Sequence record: MN850617.1 | From: Escherichia phage forsur | Length of the DNA: 42,476 bases | Strand: one strand, 5' to 3' | In this document: one piece after another, positions 19,162-31,269 of the stretch | How the letters are laid out: every line of letters begins with the position of its first letter | How positions within the stretch are numbered: the first letter of the stretch is position 1 | Translations under genes and position numbers: made by a program | The notes under the pieces: generated by a model | What the model saw: only the letters and a program-made list of their open reading frames with translations | What the model was told of the DNA's origin: nothing | Databases searched by the model: none

Positions 19162-21533
19162 TGGCGAACAGCTATAACACTTACGTGGCGAACGGTTCGC
19201 AGACCGCGTTCCTCGTTACGTTTGAGCAGCGCGTGTTCACACAGATTCAGGTGTACCTCAACTCCGAACTCCAAACGAGCGGGTACACCTACAACTCTGT
19301 GACCAAACAGATTGTCTTTGACACCGCCCCGCTCGCCGGGGTGATTGTCCGTTTGCAACGCTACACCTCTGAGACTCTGCTGAACAAGTTCGGACAGGAC
19401 GCTGCCTTTACGGGCAGCAACCTCGACGAGAACTTCGAGCAGATTCTGTTCAAGGCTGAGGAAACTCAGGAAGCATGGCTCGCGCCGCTTGACCGCGCCG
19501 TCCGTGTCCCGAACTCCGAAGTCTCCATCAACGCATTACCGAACGTCGCTGGCCGCCGCAACAAGGCACTGGGCTTTGACAGCAATGGCCAGCCGTTCAT
19601 GATTCCTCTGGTTGATATCCCTGACTCCGCGCTGGCGATTGCTCTGGCAATGGCTGACGGCGGTAAGTGGATTGGTACACTGGGCGGCGGTACGTTCCTC
19701 GACCGTCAGGATACCGTGTGCCTGTCAGAGTTCACCAACAACACCGGGTATGCCTCTGTCGCCGCTGCGGTACAAGCGTGCTTCGATTATGCCAAGGCTA
19801 ACCACAAGACTGTGGATGCCCGTGGTTGGGTCGGTACTGTCAACTCTACTGTCCTGATGGACGGTATTGAGGTTGTCGGCGGCACTTGGAACGGTACGGC
19901 TGATATCCGGCTGCTGGATTCCACATTCCGCGACTTCAAAGCCTCCACTGTCCGTGTCTGTTACTGGGGTGGTAAGGTTCGCATCTCTGATTATGAGTTC
20001 ACTGGTGCGCCGTCGAACTCCAAAGTAGCGAGCATCCTGTTCCAAGGTAACATCGCCGGGGGCAGCTACGTTATTGAGAACGGTATCCACCGCAATGGCA
20101 AGTTCGGTATTCTCCAGCAGGGTACTGGTGAGGCTATCGACAACGGCGTTATCCGCAACATCGCTATGATGAATATGCTGGGTGACGGCATCGAGATGAA
20201 CGTAATCAACAAGCACTATGATGGTGGCCTGCTGATTGAGAACATCTACCTCGAAGACCTCGACGGTACGACCGCTCCTATCCCTCTGTCCAACTGGGGC
20301 ATCGGTATCGGTATCGCTGGTCAAGGCCCGTTCGGTTGGGATGCTGCTGAAACGCAGTACGCCAAGAACGTGGTTGTCCGTAACGTCCATGCTCCGCGTG
20401 GTGTGCGTCAGGTTGTCCACTTCGAAGTTACCCGCGACAGCGTGTGCGAGAACGTGTTCTGTAACCCTGACCTCGCTGTGTCAACTGGTACTGGCCTGAC
20501 GGCGGCAGGTGTAATCACCTACGGCTGCAAGCGAATGACCATTGACGGCGTGGCTGGTGAGCCAATCAACACTGGCGCAACCTCTCCTAACGCGATTCGT
20601 CTCGTTATGTTGGAGTGGGGTGCGAACCAAGCAGGTGCAGGCGGTACGCCGGGCGCGGCATGTCCTTCGTTTGACATGACTGTGCGCAACGTGCAGACCC
20701 GTACCGGACGCTTCTATGCTGGCGTTGGCTCTGATGACGTGAACAACAACACGTACCATCTGGAAAACATCCACTGCCATACGATGAGTCTGTTCGGCGT
20801 GGCAACGCTGCTGAATATGACCAACGTGACCGGGGTAGTGTTCGATGCTGTAGGCGATGACTCCAGCGGCGGTACTTCATCCAACGGCCTATACCCGCGT
20901 AAGAAGACTGTTCTCAACATGGTGAACGTGAACTTCTACGGCGATGGCATGACTGAGGGTGCGCTGTACAGTAAGGCTCGCTATTCGGATATCAGTACGC
21001 TGAACTCCAACGTGCGTGCTATCCCGTACACCAACATCCAAGGTAACGTAGGCGTCATCCTGTCTCCGGTCAACCGCATGTACACGCTGCCGAATAACCT
21101 TGCAACCCTGACTGGTGGGGAGTTCCCGACTGGTAAAGAGTTCTGTGAGGGGACGGTGCTGTTTAAGACTGACGGCTCTGGTGGCAACTTCATCGTGACT
21201 GGCTTCGGCGCGTACATCCCGGATGACGGGAACAACTTCAAGGTGCGTGCTGCTGCCGCTGGCCAGACGTATCTTGAGCAGAACCTGACTCCGGCTGGTA
21301 CTCAGGCTTCCACCTCGTGGCTGTACCATAAGCCTATCTCGGCTGGTACTCGTCTACAGGTGCCGGGCGCTGGCGCTGGTGGTGCGCCCTTGACGGTTAC
21401 GGTGGTTCGTGCGCCTTATCAGGTGGACAATAACATCGGGAACCCGGTACGCATCGACATTACCCCGGCGCTCGTGACGGCTATCCCTGCTGGGACTCAG
21501 CTCGCCGCGACGTACCCGGTCACTTATATCTAA
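19161..21533 (+). CDS. tail fiber/tailspike: T7 gp17-like N-terminal adaptor plus a probable right-handed beta-helix (depolymerase-like) body (790 aa)
   Basis: The N-terminal ~150 aa align with T7 gp17 as recalled (NGSQTAFLVTFE.., VRLQRYTSETLL..NLDENFEQILFKAEE). The central region has repetitive G/N-x-x-I/V rungs (VIENGIHRNGKFGILQQG..IRNIAMMNMLGDGIEMNVI). Confidence 0.82.
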   Translation: MANSYNTYVANGSQTAFLVTFEQRVFTQIQVYLNSELQTSGYTYNSVTKQIVFDTAPLAGVIVRLQRYTSETLLNKFGQDAAFTGSNLDENFEQILFKAEETQEAWLAPLDRAVRVPNSEVSINALPNVAGRRNKALGFDSNGQPFMIPLVDIPDSALAIALAMADGGKWIGTLGGGTFLDRQDTVCLSEFTNNTGYASVAAAVQACFDYAKANHKTVDARGWVGTVNSTVLMDGIEVVGGTWNGTADIRLLDSTFRDFKASTVRVCYWGGKVRISDYEFTGAPSNSKVASILFQGNIAGGSYVIENGIHRNGKFGILQQGTGEAIDNGVIRNIAMMNMLGDGIEMNVINKHYDGGLLIENIYLEDLDGTTAPIPLSNWGIGIGIAGQGPFGWDAAETQYAKNVVVRNVHAPRGVRQVVHFEVTRDSVCENVFCNPDLAVSTGTGLTAAGVITYGCKRMTIDGVAGEPINTGATSPNAIRLVMLEWGANQAGAGGTPGAACPSFDMTVRNVQTRTGRFYAGVGSDDVNNNTYHLENIHCHTMSLFGVATLLNMTNVTGVVFDAVGDDSSGGTSSNGLYPRKKTVLNMVNVNFYGDGMTEGALYSKARYSDISTLNSNVRAIPYTNIQGNVGVILSPVNRMYTLPNNLATLTGGEFPTGKEFCEGTVLFKTDGSGGNFIVTGFGAYIPDDGNNFKVRAAAAGQTYLEQNLTPAGTQASTSWLYHKPISAGTRLQVPGAGAGGAPLTVTVVRAPYQVDNNIGNPVRIDITPALVTAIPAGTQLAATYPVTYI

Positions 21534-21542
21534 GGAGAAACC

Positions 21543-21848
21543 ATGGCATCCGTGAACAAGCAGCTCGACGGGCTGCACCGGATGCTGGTGGAGTATCTGT
21601 CCGACCGCTTGGCCGACGCACGTAGGAAAGATGAGAACGGTAATATCATCGAACCTATGGCGGCGGCTGAGCTGTCCGTGCTTCGCCAGTTCCTGAAAGA
21701 CAACGGCATTCAGGCTGATAAAGACCACGCTGACGACCTGCTCGCGCTGCAAGAACAGCTCAACAACGAGAAGACCGAGGCTGGCCGCAAGGATATCATG
21801 ACTGCTGCCATCAACTCAATCGCAGAAGATAGCGGGATGATGCACTAA
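21543..21848 (+). CDS. terminase small subunit (DNA maturase A-like, 101 aa)
   Basis: Small helical protein immediately upstream of, and coupled to, the large terminase, as T7 gp18 is. Confidence 0.68.
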   Translation: MASVNKQLDGLHRMLVEYLSDRLADARRKDENGNIIEPMAAAELSVLRQFLKDNGIQADKDHADDLLALQEQLNNEKTEAGRKDIMTAAINSIAEDSGMMH

Positions 21849-23608
21849 TGGATTTACAACGCCGCATGGTGATGGCAGGAATCGTTCGCGCTCACTACGA
21901 GAACAACTTCCCGCTGTTCCTGCACGACTACTTCGCATGGCTGGGCTTTGACCTCACTGAAATGCAGCTCGACATTGGCCGCTACATGGCCGACCGGACG
22001 CTCAAGAACAAGTGCGTCATGGCGCAGCGTGGTGAGGCTAAGTCCACCATCGGCATTGCTCGCGCTCTGTACGAATTTGTGCAGATGCCGAACGCTACTG
22101 TCCTGCTCGTATCCGGTTCCGACGACTATGCTGGTACGCTGTCGCACGCTATCGTGTCGGCTATCATGCAATGGGACAGGTTGGAATGGTTACGCCCGGA
22201 GACTCGCGCTGGCGCACGTACATCGTACACCGATGGCTTCGACGTGCATCACGCATTCCGTATCCCTGACAAACAACCCTCTGTAAAAGCGGTCGGTATC
22301 TTCGGCCAGTTACAGGGGAACCACGTATCGCTGTTGATTGCCGATGACGTGGAGACTACCAGTAACGGTAGCTCTCCTGCCAACCGCGCCCGTATCAACA
22401 CCCTGACCAAAGAGTTCGCGGCTATCGCCAACGATGGTGCAGAGATTCTGTACCTCGGCACGCCACAGACTCAGGACTCCATCTACAACACGCTCCCGCA
22501 GCGTGGCTTCGACGTTCGCATCTGGCCCGGTCGTTTCCCAACGGTTGAGGAAGAAGAACGCTATGGCGGTTGTCTGGCCCCATGGATTAAGCAGAAGATG
22601 GAGGGCCACCCGGAACTTCGCACAGGCTACGGTATCCTTGGAAACCGTGGTGCGCAGACCGACCCGCAACGCTACTCCGAAGAAAAGCAGTTGCAGAACG
22701 AACGAGACTACCAGCAGGCAGGCTTCCAGTTGCAGTTCATGCTGGACACTTCTCTGTCGGATGCTCTCAAACAGACCTTGCATCTCAAGGACTTAATCTT
22801 CTTCCACGGCTCGCCTATCTCCGCGCCGGAAGTCTTGCATTGGTCGAATCACCCACGGCACGCCGCCGAGCTGCCACTGGATTTCCCACTCGCTCGTGCG
22901 CAGCTATTCTTGGCTGCTGATTTCTCGGACACTTATGTACCATTCGAAAATGCCTCGGCGTTTCTTGACCCTGCTGGTGGTGGGTCGGATGAATCAGTTA
23001 TCATCGTCACCGCTTCTATCGGCCCGTTTATCCACGTCCTTGGTATGCACGTCTACCACGGCGGCCAGACGGAGGAAAACATCCAGACGGCGGTGGCGTG
23101 GCTAGGTGAGCTGGGCTGCAAACGTCTCGTCATTGAGGACAACATGGGCCACGGCACCGTGACCAACATGTACCGAGGTGAGATTAAGCGGCAGAAGCTG
23201 ACCATGGGCTGCGAGGGTGTATACTCGTCCGGCCAGAAAGAGGTGCGTATCATCAACCGCCTCGGCCCAATCATGCAGCGCCACCGTGTGGTTATCCACT
23301 GGAGCGTTGTTGAAGAAGACCTGCGGTTATGCCGGGGTATGGCCAACGGTGGCCGTGAGTACAGCCTGTTCTGGCAGCTCCAGAACCTGACTCAAGACCG
23401 TCAATCCATCCCGCATGATGACCGAATTGAAACCTTAGCCGCTGCCGTGTACCTCCACGCCGAGGTGTTGCAGCAAGACGAAAACGAAGAAGCGGAGCGC
23501 CGTGCAGTCGCTGTGGCCAAAGAGTTCATCGCTAACCCTATGGGGTATGATGACCCGAAATGGCGCAGCCACAAGCCTGTACGCGGTACGCGACGGAGAA
23601 TTAGATAA
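21848..23608 (+). CDS. terminase large subunit (DNA maturase B, T7 gp19-like, 586 aa)
   Basis: Same length as T7 gp19. Walker A-like QRGEAKST and Walker B-like LLIADDVE, followed by a C-terminal nuclease-type region. Confidence 0.92.
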   Translation: MDLQRRMVMAGIVRAHYENNFPLFLHDYFAWLGFDLTEMQLDIGRYMADRTLKNKCVMAQRGEAKSTIGIARALYEFVQMPNATVLLVSGSDDYAGTLSHAIVSAIMQWDRLEWLRPETRAGARTSYTDGFDVHHAFRIPDKQPSVKAVGIFGQLQGNHVSLLIADDVETTSNGSSPANRARINTLTKEFAAIANDGAEILYLGTPQTQDSIYNTLPQRGFDVRIWPGRFPTVEEEERYGGCLAPWIKQKMEGHPELRTGYGILGNRGAQTDPQRYSEEKQLQNERDYQQAGFQLQFMLDTSLSDALKQTLHLKDLIFFHGSPISAPEVLHWSNHPRHAAELPLDFPLARAQLFLAADFSDTYVPFENASAFLDPAGGGSDESVIIVTASIGPFIHVLGMHVYHGGQTEENIQTAVAWLGELGCKRLVIEDNMGHGTVTNMYRGEIKRQKLTMGCEGVYSSGQKEVRIINRLGPIMQRHRVVIHWSVVEEDLRLCRGMANGGREYSLFWQLQNLTQDRQSIPHDDRIETLAAAVYLHAEVLQQDENEEAERRAVAVAKEFIANPMGYDDPKWRSHKPVRGTRRRIR

Positions 23609-24288
23609 TGTCCATCATCACCATCACTGATGCTCAGCGGTATGAGCTTGGTTATCGCTGCGGTATCGCAGCTAACGAGACTCAGCGCTTCATCAATGAC
23701 ACCCGTGCAGTGACGGCAGCTCAGGCTGCTGACATTGAAACGGCTATCACCAATCTGGTGGCGGCACTTGAGGCTGCTGGCTATGCTGGTACGCCGGAAG
23801 GTTCCGCTCTGCTGGCTGACGGCGCTACTGTATCTGTGGTCAACTCCGCAGGCAACGACGCGCACAATGCCACAGCCAACGTTACTGGCACCACGCTGGA
23901 TAATGTACAGCTCGTCCTGTCTACCGCAGCACTGGTAGACCACACTGACGCAACTGAGATTCGTCGCTTCGACGGCTCTATCCTTGGCATCACCACCGCT
24001 ACGGCCCGTGTAGCTGATGGTCTGCTGAGCAACGTGCGGCTCCCGGCCAACGCTGATGCAGTGGTTAACGGTACGGCTTATTCCGTCCGTAACTCTGCTG
24101 GCGCTGATGGCCACAACGCCACCGCTGTCGTGGCAAGCAACGGTGCTCTCTCCGGCTTCAACCTCGCCGCTACTGTGGCTATGGTGGATAACGGTGATGC
24201 ACTGGCAATCCCGGTCACTGGCACGTACACCAACACCGTGACCTTCGCTGTTTCCGCTGGTGCAATCACTGGCATTACCCTCTCTTAA
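23608..24288 (+). CDS. hypothetical protein with an internal ~80-aa tandem duplication (226 aa)
   Basis: ATGA-type coupling to terminase. Two repeats share VxNSAGxDxHNATAxV..(V/M)VD. Ala/Thr/Gly/Asn-rich like fiber or decoration proteins. Confidence 0.6.
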   Translation: MSIITITDAQRYELGYRCGIAANETQRFINDTRAVTAAQAADIETAITNLVAALEAAGYAGTPEGSALLADGATVSVVNSAGNDAHNATANVTGTTLDNVQLVLSTAALVDHTDATEIRRFDGSILGITTATARVADGLLSNVRLPANADAVVNGTAYSVRNSAGADGHNATAVVASNGALSGFNLAATVAMVDNGDALAIPVTGTYTNTVTFAVSAGAITGITLS

Positions 24289-24299
24289 TAGGAGTCTTT

Positions 24300-24485
24300 A
24301 TGGCACTTGTAGATTCTACCGCAGCCGAACGTGCAGAGTTCGTGGCAGCCTGTAATATGGCGGCTAAGTACCTGAACGTGTGGACTGAGGACTACTTCTT
24401 CGATACCACCAACACCACTCTGGTGGCGGCGTATCAGGCGTATGTCACTCGTGTGTCCAACGCGCTCACTGCGCTGACCAACTAA
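24300..24485 (+). CDS. hypothetical protein (61 aa)
   Basis: AGGAG upstream. No hydrophobic segment. Confidence 0.5.
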   Translation: MALVDSTAAERAEFVAACNMAAKYLNVWTEDYFFDTTNTTLVAAYQAYVTRVSNALTALTN

Positions 24486-24494
24486 GGGGTCAAT

Positions 24495-24983
24495 ATGAAA
24501 CTGTCTCGGCTTATGGCCGGGGCAGTCCTGTCACTGTCCTTGACTTTGACGGGCTGCTCCGCAACAAGCGCACTGTCTGCTGTAACCTCGGCTGTCTCTC
24601 CCAATAAGCCGGAACTAACGGCACAGGTTGGCGCAGAGAACACGAAACAGGGCATCGGCTTGACTGCGAAACAGTCCGACGAAACGAAGGTCGGTGACGT
24701 ATCTGGTAACGCGCAAGTGGATACCGCTAAACAGGGTAGTGATTCGACGACTGTGAAGGACGTCACAGGAGGCTCTGTAAACGCTTCTAAGCAGGGTTCG
24801 CAGATTACCAATGGAAACGTGCAGGCTAAGACTATCGTGGTCTCTCAGAGCGACCCACGCAGTCTCCTGTGGGCATTTGGCATGGGCCTTACTTGTATCT
24901 TAGGTCTGGTGATGTGGTTTGTACCATCTCCGTGGAAGAAGAAGGTGAAAGATGACGGAAGCAAAGAAGGAGCCAGCTCCTAA
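24495..24983 (+). CDS. outer-membrane lipoprotein with a C-terminal transmembrane anchor: unimolecular spanin (u-spanin) candidate (162 aa)
   Basis: Signal peptide plus lipobox LTG|C (residues 18-21) and a C-terminal TMD LLWAFGMGLTCILGLVMWFV followed by KKK. Adjacent to the endolysin. Confidence 0.6.
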   Translation: MKLSRLMAGAVLSLSLTLTGCSATSALSAVTSAVSPNKPELTAQVGAENTKQGIGLTAKQSDETKVGDVSGNAQVDTAKQGSDSTTVKDVTGGSVNASKQGSQITNGNVQAKTIVVSQSDPRSLLWAFGMGLTCILGLVMWFVPSPWKKKVKDDGSKEGASS

Positions 24984-25335
24984 CATCCACTCGCGTATGG
25001 GCGCTGTGGAGGCTCGTATGCAATCCGTAGAAACACGCCTCGACAAACACGAGATTCAAATCGCCAACCTTGAGAAAGGTGACGCTGCTATGCTGGCCAA
25101 GCTATCGGAGAACGACTCCCGGTGGCTGGAGATTCAGCAGCAGCTCCGTGTCGTCGAGCAAATTCAGGACATTCAAAAGACTATGAGCCACATCGGTAAG
25201 CTGTTCTCTTACGCGGCTCACGCCGTCAAGTGGTGTCTCCTGACCGCTTCACTCGTTAGCGGTATCTATCTTGCGGTCAAGGCTGGCGACCTAACGGCGC
25301 TCCAGTCCTTTATCACAACGATTATGGGGATGTAA
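24952..25335 (+). CDS. membrane protein, holin candidate (127 aa; N-terminal coiled coil, single C-terminal TMD)
   Basis: GAAGGTGAAAG upstream of ATG 24952. TMD VKWCLLTASLVSGIYLAV. Lies immediately upstream of the endolysin and coupled to it (ATGTAATG). Confidence 0.45.
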   Translation: MTEAKKEPAPNIHSRMGAVEARMQSVETRLDKHEIQIANLEKGDAAMLAKLSENDSRWLEIQQQLRVVEQIQDIQKTMSHIGKLFSYAAHAVKWCLLTASLVSGIYLAVKAGDLTALQSFITTIMGM

Positions 25336-25871
25336 TGACTAACTTTGAAATCTGTATGAAGTTCACCGGGCTGGCCGAGGGTGGATACACCAAGCTGCCC
25401 GGTGACACTGGAGGGGAAACCAACCATGGAATTAGTGACGCTCGTGATGGGAAGCTGGATGGCAGAGCTTGTGGTGTCCCTACTGGGCTTGGCGGCACTG
25501 TGTGCGTGCCTATCAAAGACCTCACCAAAGAGCAAGCCGAGGCAATCTATCGCCGGGACTACTACAGCCCCATCAGAGGTGACGAGCTTCACCCTGCGAT
25601 TGCATGTGCCGTGTTTGATTACGGCGTCAACTCCGGCATCTCCCGTGCTGCTAAAGCTCTACAGCGGGTATGCGGCGTTGCACAGGACGGGGACATTGGT
25701 ACTGTCACCTTGGAAGCAGCACAACGTCTGGAACCTCACGCCGCAGCAGCAGCCATCTGTGACCTTCGTATTGCGTTCCTAAAGGCTTCTAAAGCCCCGA
25801 CAGTCGTTCGGTATAGGGATGCCTTGGTTGCTCGTGCAAAACGCTGTAGCGCTTACTGTGCGACGCTGTAG
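25335..25871 (+). CDS. endolysin, GH108-type muramidase with a PG_binding_3-like C-terminal domain (178 aa)
   Basis: N-terminal GLAEGGYTKLPGDTGGETNHGIS (the EGGY..D.GG.T..GI signature) and a later QDGDIGTVTLEAA motif. No signal or SAR segment. Confidence 0.85.
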   Translation: MTNFEICMKFTGLAEGGYTKLPGDTGGETNHGISDARDGKLDGRACGVPTGLGGTVCVPIKDLTKEQAEAIYRRDYYSPIRGDELHPAIACAVFDYGVNSGISRAAKALQRVCGVAQDGDIGTVTLEAAQRLEPHAAAAAICDLRIAFLKASKAPTVVRYRDALVARAKRCSAYCATL

Positions 25872-25900
25872 GGGCATCTGAAAGCTGACACATTGAACAG

Positions 25901-25930
25901 GCCGTGGGTGCAATACCCCGGCTTGAAAAT
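25901..25930 (+). terminator. stem-loop after the last late gene (weak terminator candidate)
   Basis: GCCGtGGG-TGCAATA-CCCCGGC (25901..25922) followed by TTGAAAATTG. Confidence 0.35.
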
Positions 25931-25939
25931 TGAACGTTT

Positions 25940-26455
25940 ATGCGTGGGCCTCCCTCGACCCGAATGACCGCGCGTACCCCCATGACGTGTGCGCGGATTA
26001 GCCTCGCGACGTGCGCGATATTGCTCGCGTGCGCTGCGCGGCGCGTCAAGAGGATTGCCTGCGTGCGGTATAGCTCGTGCGTGTCGCGTTTCATCGTCTG
26101 CCGTGTGGCGTGCTGTGCGCTGTCCTGCTGGCTGTGCTGTGCGGTGCTGTCCTATGGGGACGCTCTGCGCTGGCTGTGCTGTGCTGCGTGCTGCGCTCGG
26201 TCGGGCGGGTATCTGTCTCTTTTGCCGTGGTACGCTCTGCGCCGTGGTGGTGCTGTGTGGTGGTGGTGCTGCCGTGGTGCTGTCCTGTCTGCTGGTCTAC
26301 TGTCTGCGCCGCCAGCTCTGCGCGTCATGCTCTGCTACCTGCTGCTACTGTCCTACTGCGTTCACTGGCTGCCGCCTGTCATCCTGTCGGATTCCATCCG
26401 TTGCCGTTCCGCGCTCGCTTGTTTCGGCTGCGCCGCGCTCGCTCTGCGTATCTAG
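25940..26455. repeat. GC-rich, A-depleted (+ strand) low-complexity tract with short degenerate direct repeats; probable location of the collapsed terminal repeat / concatemer junction
   Basis: By hand count there are about 15 A in 26101..26450, with A-free runs of 53, 50 and 66 nt. Recurring GCTGTGCTGTGC, GGTGCTGTCCTG, GCCGTGGT and CGCTCTGCGC units. Confidence 0.7.
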
Positions 26456-26462
26456 CGATACA

Positions 26463-26485
26463 TATCACTATAGTCACTTTCATAA
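26463..26485 (-). promoter_or_regulatory. phage-RNAP promoter candidate P3, inverted (leftward) perfect copy of P1
   Basis: The reverse complement of 26463..26485 equals TTATGAAAGTGACTATAGTGATA, identical to 4585..4607. Predicted +1 is the G complementary to 26468, transcribing toward 25940. Confidence 0.5.
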
Positions 26486-26622
26486 TTATCTATTGATATC
26501 AGTAACTTATAACCTATCTGATAACGGTATCTATCCTATGCAATAACCTATTCAATCAAATATTTATTCCTAATGATTACAGTAACTTATCCACTATTTG
26601 AGCTATTCAGTGAAAATAAATC

Positions 26623-26651
26623 TTGCAATGCTGTTTGTGATTTGCTGTAAT
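26623..26651 (+). promoter_or_regulatory. sigma70 early promoter candidate PE0
   Basis: TTGCAA (26623-26628), 17-nt spacer, extended -10 TGcTGTAAT (TGTAAT at 26646-26651). Confidence 0.55.
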
Positions 26652-26726
26652 TCTCATCGCCGGGTAGCAGAACATCGCTACACGGTGGCAAGACGGTAAC
26701 ACTGCTCTTTAACAATCTGGAGTGTA

Positions 26727-26755
26727 TTGACAAGGCAAGCTCACTATGCTGTAAT
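26727..26755 (+). promoter_or_regulatory. sigma70 early promoter PE1
   Basis: Consensus TTGACA (26727-26732), 17-nt spacer, extended -10 TGcTGTAAT (26750-26755). Confidence 0.8.
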
Positions 26756-26863
26756 GCTTCCAGTCAGCCAGACAAGCCAAACAGTCATGGATAAAGACGT
26801 TAAAACCCGCGCAGGCTAACTGGTACGGATTATTCATCTCAGAATGGGCGCTGAATAAAACGG

Positions 26864-26892
26864 TTGACAGGATGAAACGAGTATGCTGTAAT
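26864..26892 (+). promoter_or_regulatory. sigma70 early promoter PE2
   Basis: TTGACA (26864-26869), 17-nt spacer, TGcTGTAAT (26887-26892). Confidence 0.8.
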
Positions 26893-26944
26893 ACGCTCCA
26901 GATTGACAGGGCAAGCAAGCCTGACAGTCAGTAGTAAAAAGTAG

Positions 26945-26973
26945 TTGACAAGCTGAATACACTGTGTTGTAAT
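26945..26973 (+). promoter_or_regulatory. sigma70 early promoter PE3
   Basis: TTGACA (26945-26950), 17-nt spacer, TGtTGTAAT (26968-26973). Confidence 0.8.
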
Positions 26974-27451
26974 CAGCACCGAGTTGGAAGGATGCAAAAC
27001 ATCCTGCTCTGAGTGAACGCAAACTGGCCGCGTAGTGTCACGGCTCACTGGGTATCCGCCGCAGGTTGGAACTGGGTGAGGCATCGCCGAAAGGCAACGG
27101 TATCGCAACAATGCTAACGCCGTAGGGGTAGCGCCTGATGCAAGGTAACGGAGAAGCGCGATAGACGCAGCGCAGTATCAGTACAATACCAAACGTCTTA
27201 TAAGGCGCGGAGTATAGCGGGTAGGTAGTCAAACGGCTTGTTAGCTGGCAACGGTGAGCAAGATACGCGACGGACTGCTGGAAGACTCCTGAGAGTGGAT
27301 GCAGACAATATCCACAGCGCGAAATGGGCGGGGCGATTTTTCAGGGTAGTGAATCCGACAAGCCAATCAATGCCACTGAGTGCAGACTGTACGGCGCGTC
27401 ACAATGGGTTCACTATCCACCTGAAAATAGCCAACAACTGGAGAAATAACT

Positions 27452-30954: not shown

Positions 30955-31269
30955 ATGAAGGTAAGCAAAGGATATCTGTTCGTGCTGTTGATGCTGGCCA
31001 CCCTGTATCTCAGCACCGTGCATGTGGCACTGGCAGCCACTGTGGAGAAGGTGCATTTGGATGCGTATGACGTACCGCTGGGCGCACCTGATGGACAGGT
31101 GTACTCTGCTTGCGTCATTGACCTACGCAAAGGCGGCACTGTCAGCACACTGGCCTACGTTGGTGAGTGTGAGGATGTGCTGCCACACCTGAAAGAAAAG
31201 CTGGAGCATGATGGCGTGACCACCATCGTGACTCTCTCAATCAACGGTCATAACATCAACCTAACGTGA
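30955..31269 (+). CDS. secreted/periplasmic early protein (104 aa)
   Basis: N-terminal signal peptide MKVSKGYLFVLLMLATLYLSTVHVALA|AT. GAGGG upstream. Confidence 0.7.
   Translation: MKVSKGYLFVLLMLATLYLSTVHVALAATVEKVHLDAYDVPLGAPDGQVYSACVIDLRKGGTVSTLAYVGECEDVLPHLKEKLEHDGVTTIVTLSINGHNINLT

What the first reader, a model, noticed from the sequence alone, without database searches (positions are those of the whole stretch)
24495..24983. Unimolecular spanin candidate instead of the Rz/Rz1 pair expected in T7/phiKMV-like lysis cassettes
Seen in sequence: there is one polypeptide with a lipoprotein signal (lipobox LTGC) and a C-terminal TMD. This is the T1 gp11 architecture, which bridges the outer and inner membranes. 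No embedded or overlapping Rz1-like lipoprotein ORF was seen elsewhere in the cassette.

The periplasmic part has three loose repeats centred on (T/A/S)KQG.

Established knowledge: u-spanins are much rarer than two-component spanins.
Basis: partly seen in the sequence, partly recalled or inferred. Interest (0 to 1): 0.5.

Follow-up and report, generated by a model that had tools for sequence, protein, structure and literature searches.

The report
Known T1-type single-protein phage spanin
This gene encodes a single protein anchored in both bacterial membranes that the phage uses to break the outer membrane at lysis; it is real, but its 91%-identical counterpart in phage J8-65 was catalogued as this type in 2018, so it is ordinary.

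Summary
The ORF at 24495..24983 (+, 162 aa) is real and under purifying selection (dN/dS about 0.10-0.15).

- **Architecture:** it has a lipoprotein signal (LTGC, Cys21, Ser at +2), a Cys-free periplasmic part of about 100 aa, and a C-terminal transmembrane helix followed by KKKVK.
- **Homology:** BLASTP against T1 gp11 gives E=5e-16, and both proteins fall in PHROG 1804. It is 91% identical to J8-65 gp45.
- **Prior knowledge:** Kongari et al. 2018 (PMC6139136) list J8-65 gp45, together with LIMEzero, as a T1-gp11-family u-spanin.
- **Source:** the window is Escherichia phage forsur (Bonnellvirus). There the gene is deposited as 'hypothetical protein forsur_25'.
- **No second spanin:** I found no Rz/Rz1 pair. 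The one alternative-frame pseudo-lipoprotein ORF, inside the endolysin gene, is not conserved in LIMEzero.
- **Gene order:** u-spanin, holin candidate, endolysin. This matches KP34-like and Phimunavirus phages, so a u-spanin here is not unexpected.
- **Repeats:** the KQG repeats are real, with two clear ~20-aa units and one degenerate motif. Copy number (1, 2 or 3) explains the family's length classes of about 129, 162 and 188 aa. I did not find this small point stated in the literature I read.

The parts
24484..24489 (+). Shine-Dalgarno-like AAGGGG, 5 nt upstream of the ATG
   Evidence: Read directly from the sequence.
24495..24983 (+). u-spanin gene (162 aa plus stop), T1 gp11 family; equals forsur_25
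   Evidence: ORF. PHROG 1804 at E=2e-37. BLASTP against T1 gp11 E=5e-16. 91% identical to J8-65 gp45. Exact match to QHR71826.1. dN/dS 0.10-0.15.
24495..24557 (+). Lipoprotein signal peptide (aa 1-20) with lipobox LTGC; the Cys21 codon TGC is at 24555-24557
   Evidence: Lipobox rule. L18 and C21 are invariant in alignments A1 and A2. 121 of 122 homologues keep a lipobox. AF2 helix at 4-19.
24618..24653 (+). Family signature block TAQVGAENTKQG (aa 42-53), the best-conserved periplasmic segment, shared with T1 gp11
   Evidence: Invariant columns T42 A43 Q44 V45 G46 N49 K51 Q52. Aligned identically to T1 gp11.
24684..24746 (+). Repeat unit A (aa 64-84, TKVGDVSGNAQVDTAKQGSDS)
   Evidence: Unit-HMM hit at 27.8 bits. 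Pairwise score of unit 2 against unit 3 is 35. Absent from the 129-aa homologues and from T1 gp11.
24750..24806 (+). Repeat unit B (aa 86-104, TVKDVTGGSVNASKQGSQI)
   Evidence: Unit-HMM hit at 27.2 bits. Present in all length classes.
24858..24929 (+). C-terminal transmembrane domain (aa about 122-145)
   Evidence: Kyte-Doolittle maximum 2.01. AF2 helix 121-142 with the highest pLDDT of the model. Present in 122 of 122 homologues.
24930..24980 (+). Basic cytoplasmic tail (SPWKKKVKDDGSKEGASS); its last 29 nt and the stop codon overlap the next gene
   Evidence: Sequence. The positive-inside rule places this end in the cytoplasm (inference).
24952..25335 (+). Holin candidate (127 aa): one long helix that includes a single TMD at about 91-109. 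It overlaps the u-spanin gene by 32 nt. A second possible start lies at ATG 25018.
   Evidence: It is the only other membrane protein of the cassette. AF2 helix 12-110 at pLDDT 85. XhlA-like only below threshold. PHROG 35530, function unknown. Distant relatives also sit between a u-spanin and a GH24 lysozyme.
25335..25871 (+). Soluble GH108 endolysin (178 aa), no SAR or signal sequence
   Evidence: PF05838 at E=4.9e-22. PHROG 315 endolysin. No hydrophobic segment.

Best explanation
The ORF encodes a unimolecular spanin of the T1 gp11 family, the last-step lysis protein of Escherichia phage forsur (Bonnellvirus, Autographiviridae).

Inferred pathway:
1. The precursor is exported by Sec.
2. It is lipidated on Cys21 and cleaved by signal peptidase II.
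3. [quoted passage not shown]
4. The C-terminal helix (about 122-145) stays in the inner membrane, with the KKKVK tail in the cytoplasm.
5. Each molecule therefore threads the peptidoglycan mesh and ties the two membranes together through a Cys-free, Ser/Thr/Val/Gly/Gln-rich periplasmic segment of about 100 aa. That segment comprises a short helix, the TAQVGAENTKQG block, two ~20-aa units and a final strand-like stretch.
6. The adjacent 127-aa single-TMD protein (holin candidate) permeabilises the inner membrane, and the soluble GH108 endolysin then destroys the murein.
7. The spanin is no longer held apart. It collapses or oligomerises, pulls the membranes together and fuses or disrupts them, releasing virions.

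Shown here: the ORF, its signals, its conservation, its homology to T1 gp11, its position in the cassette, and the absence of Rz/Rz1.
Shown by others for T1 gp11 only: complementation of lambda Rz/Rz1.
Inferred: processing, topology, holin identity and the fusion mechanism.
For: ORF and signals.

Homology: BLASTP against T1 gp11 gives 36% identity over 141 aa, E=5e-16. The window protein and T1 gp11 both hit only PHROG 1804 'Rz-like spanin' (E=2e-37; 9.7e-45). The window protein is 91% identical to J8-65 gp45.

Literature: PMC6139136 Table 5 lists 'Limezero, J8-65' in the T1 u-spanin family. Its supplement lists 'J8-65 USP 163' with a 102-aa periplasmic domain, 14.7% predicted helix and 34.3% predicted beta. 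The same paper reports that T1 gene 11 complements lambda RzRz1 and that no u-spanin has a periplasmic Cys.

Family features: conserved in 122 homologues; invariant L18, C21 and the TAQVG..N.KQ block. Purifying selection.

Synteny: TerL, two small ORFs, u-spanin, holin, endolysin is shared with PhiM1, KpV74, LIMEzero and metagenomic relatives.

Breadth: tblastn finds 537 phage records with homologues, some annotated 'U-spanin'. PPWS1 names its homologue 'RzlA (u-spanin)'.

No two-component spanin.
Against: There is no experimental test of this protein or of any Bonnellvirus orthologue.

The AlphaFold2 monomer model gives pLDDT below 50 and no beta strands for the periplasmic part. The beta-rich feature is therefore not reproduced here; it rests on secondary-structure predictions in PMC6139136.

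There is no Pfam or NCBIfam model and no solved structure.

LipoP and SignalP could not be run; the signal call rests on a rule-based scan.

The holin partner is assigned only by position and topology.

The mechanism of u-spanins is itself unresolved (PMC6139136, PMC7830690).
Confidence: 0.9

Rival explanations
1. It is an o-spanin (Rz1-type outer-membrane lipoprotein), as the database names 'Rz1A protein' and 'putative Rz1-like lysis protein' imply. It would work with a separate inner-membrane partner, for instance the adjacent 127-aa protein acting as i-spanin.
For: UniRef and GenBank names of cluster members. The next gene overlaps it by 32 nt and encodes a long helical, coiled-coil-like membrane protein.
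Against: The protein carries its own conserved C-terminal TMD (122 of 122 homologues), which o-spanins lack.

The homologous T1 gp11 alone complements lambda Rz/Rz1 (PMC6139136).

The 127-aa protein has the wrong topology for an i-spanin. Its TMD is C-terminal, and its 90-aa charged N-terminal part has no export signal, with the more basic flank on the N side.

There are no periplasmic Cys.

In PhiM1, KpV74 and T1 the same spanin family sits next to small pinholin-type holins instead.
Confidence: 0.04
2. It is a membrane-tethered lipoprotein with a non-lysis role, such as superinfection exclusion or receptor masking (like Cor or Llp lipoproteins), and merely lies next to the lysis genes.
For: Phage lipoproteins with exclusion roles exist (general knowledge). 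Function has not been tested in this genus.
Against: It shows direct homology to a functionally tested spanin.

Its position immediately upstream of holin and endolysin, with overlapping reading frames, is conserved across several genera.

No other candidate for outer-membrane disruption exists in the genome.
Confidence: 0.03
3. A hidden two-component spanin exists elsewhere, for example the alternative-frame ORF 25402..25782 inside the endolysin gene with 'LLGLAALCAC', and the 162-aa protein is redundant.
For: That ORF passes a loose lipobox rule. It is open in HHU8, mellemsur and J8-65. It has GGAGG 10 nt upstream of an internal ATG.
Against: In LIMEzero the same frame has no Cys in that segment and is cut by stops. 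In the metagenomic relative L011 the downstream sequence is unrelated.

The -1 residue alternates between Ala and Val among close relatives, and acidic residues lie in the n and h regions.

The GGAGG and ATG arise from the conserved GH108 motif GGETNHG.

No i-spanin-like partner exists.

Long open alternative frames are common in this GC-rich genome.
Confidence: 0.02

Closest known systems
Escherichia phage J8-65 gp45 (YP_009101394.1) and Pantoea phage LIMEzero gp53, u-spanins of the T1 gp11 family (Kongari et al. 2018, PMC6139136, Table 5)
   Same: Orthologues: 91% identity over the full length to J8-65 gp45 and 67% to LIMEzero gp53. They share the lipobox LTGC, the signature block and the TMD. 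They sit in the same cassette, with an XhlA-like single-TMD protein and a GH108 endolysin rather than pinholin plus SAR endolysin.
   Different: A few substitutions only against J8-65. LIMEzero has a third copy of the ~20-aa unit (188 aa) and a divergent TMD and tail. In the forsur and usur GenBank records the gene is labelled 'hypothetical protein'.
Phage T1 gp11 (YP_003934.1), the prototype u-spanin
   Same: Homologous: E=5e-16, 36% identity, same PHROG 1804. Both have an N-terminal lipobox (LSGC against LTGC), the TAQVGAENTKQ block, a Cys-free periplasmic domain and a C-terminal TMD with a basic tail.
   Different: T1 gp11 is 133 aa and lacks one ~20-aa unit, seen as a 16-residue gap. It is the last gene of a holin, SAR-endolysin, spanin cassette in a siphovirus. 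Here the spanin comes first and the endolysin is soluble GH108.
KP34-like (Drulisvirus) and Phimunavirus u-spanins of Autographiviridae (PMC4411677; PhiM1 gp42, KpV74 gp53)
   Same: Same family (51% and about 34% identity). Same gene order TerL ... u-spanin, holin, endolysin, with the spanin 3' end overlapping the holin start.
   Different: These proteins are 128-134 aa with at most one repeat unit: PhiM1 has one, and KpV74 none by the unit HMM. They are paired with an 83-88-aa holin and an endolysin bearing an N-terminal hydrophobic SAR-like segment.
Lambda Rz/Rz1 and phiKMV Rz/Rz1 two-component spanins
   Same: Same presumed job: linking the inner and outer membranes and disrupting the outer membrane after murein degradation.
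   Different: No sequence similarity. Those are two proteins, with a coiled-coil i-spanin, a proline-rich o-spanin and periplasmic Cys. None of these features is present here.

Membership tests
T1 gp11-family unimolecular spanin | N-terminal lipoprotein signal with a lipobox [LVI][ASTVI][GAS]C | tested here: met
   LTGC with Cys21, K2 and R5 in the n-region. C21 and L18 are invariant. 121 of 122 homologues keep a lipobox. LipoP and SignalP were not available.
T1 gp11-family unimolecular spanin | Outer-membrane sorting: no Asp at position +2 after the lipidated Cys | tested here: met
   Ser22 in the window protein. In the family the residue is S 103, A 16, G 2, and never D.
T1 gp11-family unimolecular spanin | C-terminal transmembrane domain anchoring the same polypeptide in the inner membrane | tested here: met
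   Kyte-Doolittle 2.01 at residues 122-145 followed by KKKVK. AF2 helix 121-142. Present in 122 of 122 homologues.
T1 gp11-family unimolecular spanin | Detectable sequence homology to T1 gp11 | tested here: met
   BLASTP E=5e-16. Both proteins hit only PHROG 1804.
T1 gp11-family unimolecular spanin | No periplasmic cysteine | tested here: met
   The only Cys are C21 (lipidation site) and C134 (in the TMD). None of 122 homologues has a periplasmic Cys. PMC6139136 states this for all 58 u-spanins.
T1 gp11-family unimolecular spanin | Periplasmic domain with a short helix followed by four or more beta elements | tested here: inconclusive
   AF2 gives a short helix at 24-30, but pLDDT below 50 and no strands for residues 31-120. 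The supplement of PMC6139136 predicts 34% beta and 15% helix for the J8-65 orthologue.
T1 gp11-family unimolecular spanin | Encoded in the lysis cassette next to holin and endolysin | tested here: met
   Gene order is u-spanin, 127-aa TMD protein, GH108 endolysin, with overlapping or abutting frames. The order is conserved in relatives.
T1 gp11-family unimolecular spanin | Complements the lambda Rz/Rz1 lysis defect; needed for outer-membrane disruption | not testable with these tools
   Shown only for T1 gene 11 (PMC6139136).
Two-component spanin (Rz/Rz1 type) | An i-spanin with an N-terminal TMD and a periplasmic coiled coil, plus a small o-spanin lipoprotein gene that is embedded, overlapped or adjacent | tested here: not met
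   The six-frame lipobox scan finds no conserved second lipoprotein ORF. The only N-terminal-TMD protein (30955..31269) is an early-region protein with a cleavable-looking signal and no adjacent lipoprotein ORF.
XhlA (PF10779), considered for the neighbouring 127-aa holin candidate | Score above the Pfam gathering threshold (34.7 bits) | tested here: not met
   18.8 bits, E=0.0018. Distant relatives score 13.8-18.8 bits. It resembles XhlA in layout (coiled coil plus C-terminal TMD) but is not a demonstrable member.

The most novel reading that the evidence does not exclude
The T1 gp11 family contains a modular ~20-aa unit, consensus roughly TVKDV(S/T)G(N/G)(A/S)xV(D/N)x(A/S)KQGxxS. It occurs once in the 126-142-aa proteins, twice in the 161-167-aa Bonnellvirus proteins and three times in the 184-190-aa LIMEzero clade.

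If unit number tunes the reach or the collapse and oligomerisation of the beta-type periplasmic domain, these natural variants would be a ready-made length series for dissecting how u-spanins fuse membranes.

A second uncharacterised item is the partner 127-aa protein. Its TMD is the end of a single ~100-residue helix, and it may represent an undescribed holin type with two conserved start codons.
Probability: 0.2. Interest if true: 0.35.

Novelty: already known. Interest (0 to 1): 0.12.

Why it matters
Little changes for the field. The gene family, its presence in this phage genus and its unusual pairing with a non-SAR endolysin were all reported in 2018.

Practical value is limited to three points:
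1. The 'hypothetical protein' label on forsur_25, usur_3 and similar entries, and the misleading 'Rz1A' names, can be replaced by 'u-spanin (T1 gp11 family)'.
2. The 1/2/3 copy-number series of the ~20-aa unit gives a simple handle for experiments on the still unknown u-spanin mechanism.
3. The adjacent 127-aa protein is an unannotated holin candidate that appears only with u-spanins in the loci I examined.

Tried and rejected
**Family and structure libraries**
- Pfam and NCBIfam have no family for the u-spanin.
- A PDB profile search gave only a chance hit at E=0.44.
- The AlphaFold2 monomer from a 39-sequence alignment had mean pLDDT 51.7, with the periplasmic part unmodelled. I ran no fold search because the result would be meaningless.

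**Repeats at the DNA level**
- In the window gene and in LIMEzero only 12-19-nt matches appear. The duplications are therefore old, and nothing suggests recent slippage.

**Other ORFs tested and rejected**
- The alternative-frame pseudo-lipoprotein ORF 25402..25782 is not conserved in LIMEzero or L011.
- The minus-strand 109-aa ORF 24482..24811 has a stop in mellemsur.
- The Cys-rich ORFs at 25940..26546 lie in a non-coding G/T-rich region just before where the J8-65 terminal repeat begins.

**Signals**
- The promoter and terminator scan of 21500-27300 found nothing above shuffles.

**Errors and dead ends**
- I recalled accession FQ482083 for LIMEzero from memory. It is Erwinia phage phiEa104. 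The correct record, FR751545.1, was reached through the protein.

**The 127-aa protein**
- XhlA membership is below threshold.
- The large HMM search found only about seven full-length distant relatives; the other hits were coiled-coil noise.

**Repeat number and cassette type**
- A link between repeat number and holin/endolysin type is not strict. The 134-aa u-spanin in L014 also pairs with the XhlA-like protein.

Full report
**What is there**

The window carries an ORF at 24495..24983 on the + strand (162 aa). A Shine-Dalgarno-like AAGGGG lies 5 nt upstream of its ATG.

The product starts MKLSRLMAGAVLSLSLTLTGC. This gives a basic n-region, a hydrophobic core and a canonical lipobox L-T-G-C, with Cys21 followed by Ser.

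Residues 22-121 are hydrophilic and rich in Ser, Thr, Val, Ala, Gly, Gln and Lys, with no Cys. Residues about 122-145 form the strongest hydrophobic segment (Kyte-Doolittle 2.01) and are followed by KKKVKDD. AlphaFold2 models helices at 4-19, 24-30 and 121-142. It leaves the periplasmic part unmodelled, at pLDDT below 50.

The gene is under purifying selection. dN/dS is 0.073/0.504 against mellemsur and 0.043/0.448 against J8-65. The 109-aa ORF on the opposite strand acquires a stop in mellemsur.

**Where the window comes from**

The protein is an exact match to QHR71826.1, 'hypothetical protein forsur_25', on a 42,476-bp contig, which is the length of the window. The next protein is an exact match to forsur_26.

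The cassette region is 99% identical to phage usur. It is 84-94% identical to J8-65, mellemsur, HHU8, Lidtsur and others, which are Bonnellvirus or unclassified Autographiviridae.

**What it is**

The protein hits one profile, PHROG 1804 'Rz-like spanin', at E=2e-37. T1 gp11, the prototype unimolecular spanin, hits the same single profile at E=9.7e-45.

The two proteins align directly: 36% identity over 141 residues, E=5e-16. The alignment includes the lipobox and the block TAQVGAENTKQ. The window protein is 91% identical to J8-65 gp45.

Kongari et al. 2018 (PMC6139136) list 'Limezero, J8-65' as members of the 28-member T1 u-spanin family. They remark that these two are 'unusually long' and the least similar members. 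They also note that these are the only members not associated with a pinholin and SAR endolysin. Their supplement lists 'J8-65 USP 163'.

The same paper records three further points:
- T1 gene 11 complements the lambda Rz/Rz1 defect.
- No u-spanin has a periplasmic Cys.
- u-spanins number 58, against 528 two-component systems.

**Family-level test**

A search of the 5.8-billion-protein collection returned 183 relatives, of which the best 120 were listed. I analysed 122 full-length sequences: the 118 listed hits of at least 120 aa, plus the window protein, T1 gp11, KpV74 and PhiM1. Results:
- 121 have a lipobox by my regex; the exception has LMGC.
- All 122 have a C-terminal TMD.
- None has a periplasmic Cys.
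- None has Asp at +2.

L18, C21, T42-G46, N49, K51, Q52, G55, A111 and others are invariant. tblastn finds homologues in 537 phage records: Klebsiella 279, Escherichia 126, Pectobacterium 51. Several are annotated 'U-spanin'.

**Is there a hidden Rz/Rz1?**

A six-frame scan of all 2412 start-to-stop candidates with a PROSITE-like lipobox rule gave 17 hits. Apart from the u-spanin, they fall into three groups:
- spurious frames;
- the non-coding G/T-rich stretch at about 25,940-26,550;
- one alternative-frame ORF inside the endolysin gene (25402..25782, '...LLGLAALCAC...').

That last ORF is open in three close relatives. In LIMEzero, however, the same frame has no Cys there and is cut by stops, and in a metagenomic relative the sequence is unrelated. 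Its apparent GGAGG-ATG comes from the conserved GH108 motif GGETNHG.

No protein in the genome has i-spanin architecture.

**The cassette**

The gene order is:
1. TerL (21848..23608)
2. a 226-aa ORF
3. a 61-aa ORF
4. the u-spanin
5. a 127-aa protein (24952..25335, overlapping the spanin by 32 nt)
6. a GH108 endolysin (25335..25871; PF05838 at E=4.9e-22; no hydrophobic N-terminus)

The same spanin-holin-endolysin order occurs in Phimunavirus PhiM1 and Drulisvirus KpV74. It was described for KP34-like phages in contrast to phiKMV's holin-endolysin-Rz-Rz1 (PMC4411677). A u-spanin is thus the normal state in this part of Autographiviridae, not an exception.

What differs in Bonnellvirus and LIMEzero is the partner module. 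PhiM1, KpV74 and T1 have small holins and endolysins with N-terminal hydrophobic SAR-like segments. Here the endolysin is soluble.

The only other membrane protein of the cassette is the 127-aa protein:
- AlphaFold2 gives it one continuous helix 12-110 (pLDDT 85) whose end is the TMD.
- It resembles XhlA only below threshold.
- It belongs to a small, unannotated family.
- Two distant relatives sit in the same position, between a T1-family u-spanin and a GH24 lysozyme. This supports a lysis role independent of endolysin type.

I take it to be the holin. This is inference from position and topology.

**The repeats**

KQG occurs at residues 51, 79 and 99. Self-similarity of the periplasmic part is significant: score 64 against 32.8 +/- 6.8, with none of 500 shuffles reaching it. 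The clear pair is residues 64-84 and 86-104. The first TKQG is part of the invariant family block.

Across the family the unit count tracks the length classes:

| Length class | Unit count | Proteins |
|---|---|---|
| 126-142 aa | one | 88 of 93 |
| 161-167 aa | two | 22 of 24 |
| 184-190 aa | three | 5 of 5 |

T1 gp11 lacks the extra unit, seen as a 16-residue gap. At the DNA level the units are barely similar, so the duplications are old.

This explains why Kongari et al. found J8-65 and LIMEzero 'unusually long'. I did not find that explanation in the papers I read, though my literature access is partial.

**Mechanism and confidence**

The best-supported mechanism is the published u-spanin model:
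1. Sec export, lipidation at Cys21 and Lol sorting to the outer membrane (Ser at +2).
2. Retention of the C-terminal TMD in the inner membrane, so each molecule spans the periplasm through the murein mesh.
3. After holin triggering and GH108 digestion of the wall, collapse or oligomerisation of the periplasmic domain brings the membranes together and disrupts the outer membrane (PMC6139136, PMC7830690).

Architecture, conservation, homology and context are shown here. Function is shown only for T1 gp11. Processing, topology, holin identity and fusion are inferred. My confidence that this is a functional T1-type u-spanin is 0.9.

**Verdict**

The finding is already known, so interest is low (0.12). 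The residual value lies in correcting the annotation, in the repeat-number series and in the uncharacterised holin candidate.

Noticed in passing
window 24952-25335 (+): The 127-aa protein between u-spanin and endolysin is unannotated in every record. AF2 models a single ~100-residue helix whose last 20 residues are the only TMD (pLDDT 85). It resembles XhlA only below threshold, and its family is small. Distant relatives also sit between a T1-type u-spanin and a GH24 lysozyme (L013, L014). It is a likely holin of an undescribed family.
   Followed up: partly
window 24952 and 25018 (+): The holin candidate has two conserved in-frame starts: ATG 24952 (AAGGTG upstream) and ATG 25018, which is Met23 (GGAGG 5 nt upstream). 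Residues 11-23 are invariant across the family. Changes between the window and J8-65 in that stretch are synonymous only, so the long form is translated. The GenBank records of J8-65 and LIMEzero annotate the short form. This could be a holin/antiholin dual-start arrangement.
   Followed up: partly
window 23608-24288 and 24300-24485 (+): The 226-aa and 61-aa ORFs between TerL and the spanin share an N-terminal ~58-aa module; both match PHROG 9732 positions 1-58. The 226-aa protein also has an internal duplication (two matched stretches). In HHU8 the 226-aa gene is replaced by two short ORFs. Function is unknown.
   Followed up: no
window 25900-26550: A non-coding, strongly G/T-rich stretch with short GCTGTGCTG-type repeats generates long Cys-rich spurious ORFs. 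It lies right after the endolysin, where J8-65 has its terminal repeat. The window is therefore a circularly permuted whole genome, with the physical ends near here.
   Followed up: partly
window 25402-25782 (+, alternative frame inside the endolysin gene): A 126-aa alternative-frame ORF with a pseudo-lipobox (LCAC) and an upstream GGAGG is open in three close relatives. It is disrupted and lacks the Cys in LIMEzero, so I judge it spurious.
   Followed up: yes
window 30955-31269 (+): An early-region 104-aa protein has a cleavable-looking Sec signal (…VHVALA/ATVEK). It may be a secreted or periplasmic early protein. It is not spanin-like and has no adjacent lipoprotein ORF.
   Followed up: no
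L013 1170-1673 and L014 1064-1468: Metagenomic contigs carry further T1-family u-spanins with lipoboxes LWGC and LSAC. The one in L013 was missed by the gene caller and overlaps the next gene by 83 nt.
   Followed up: partly
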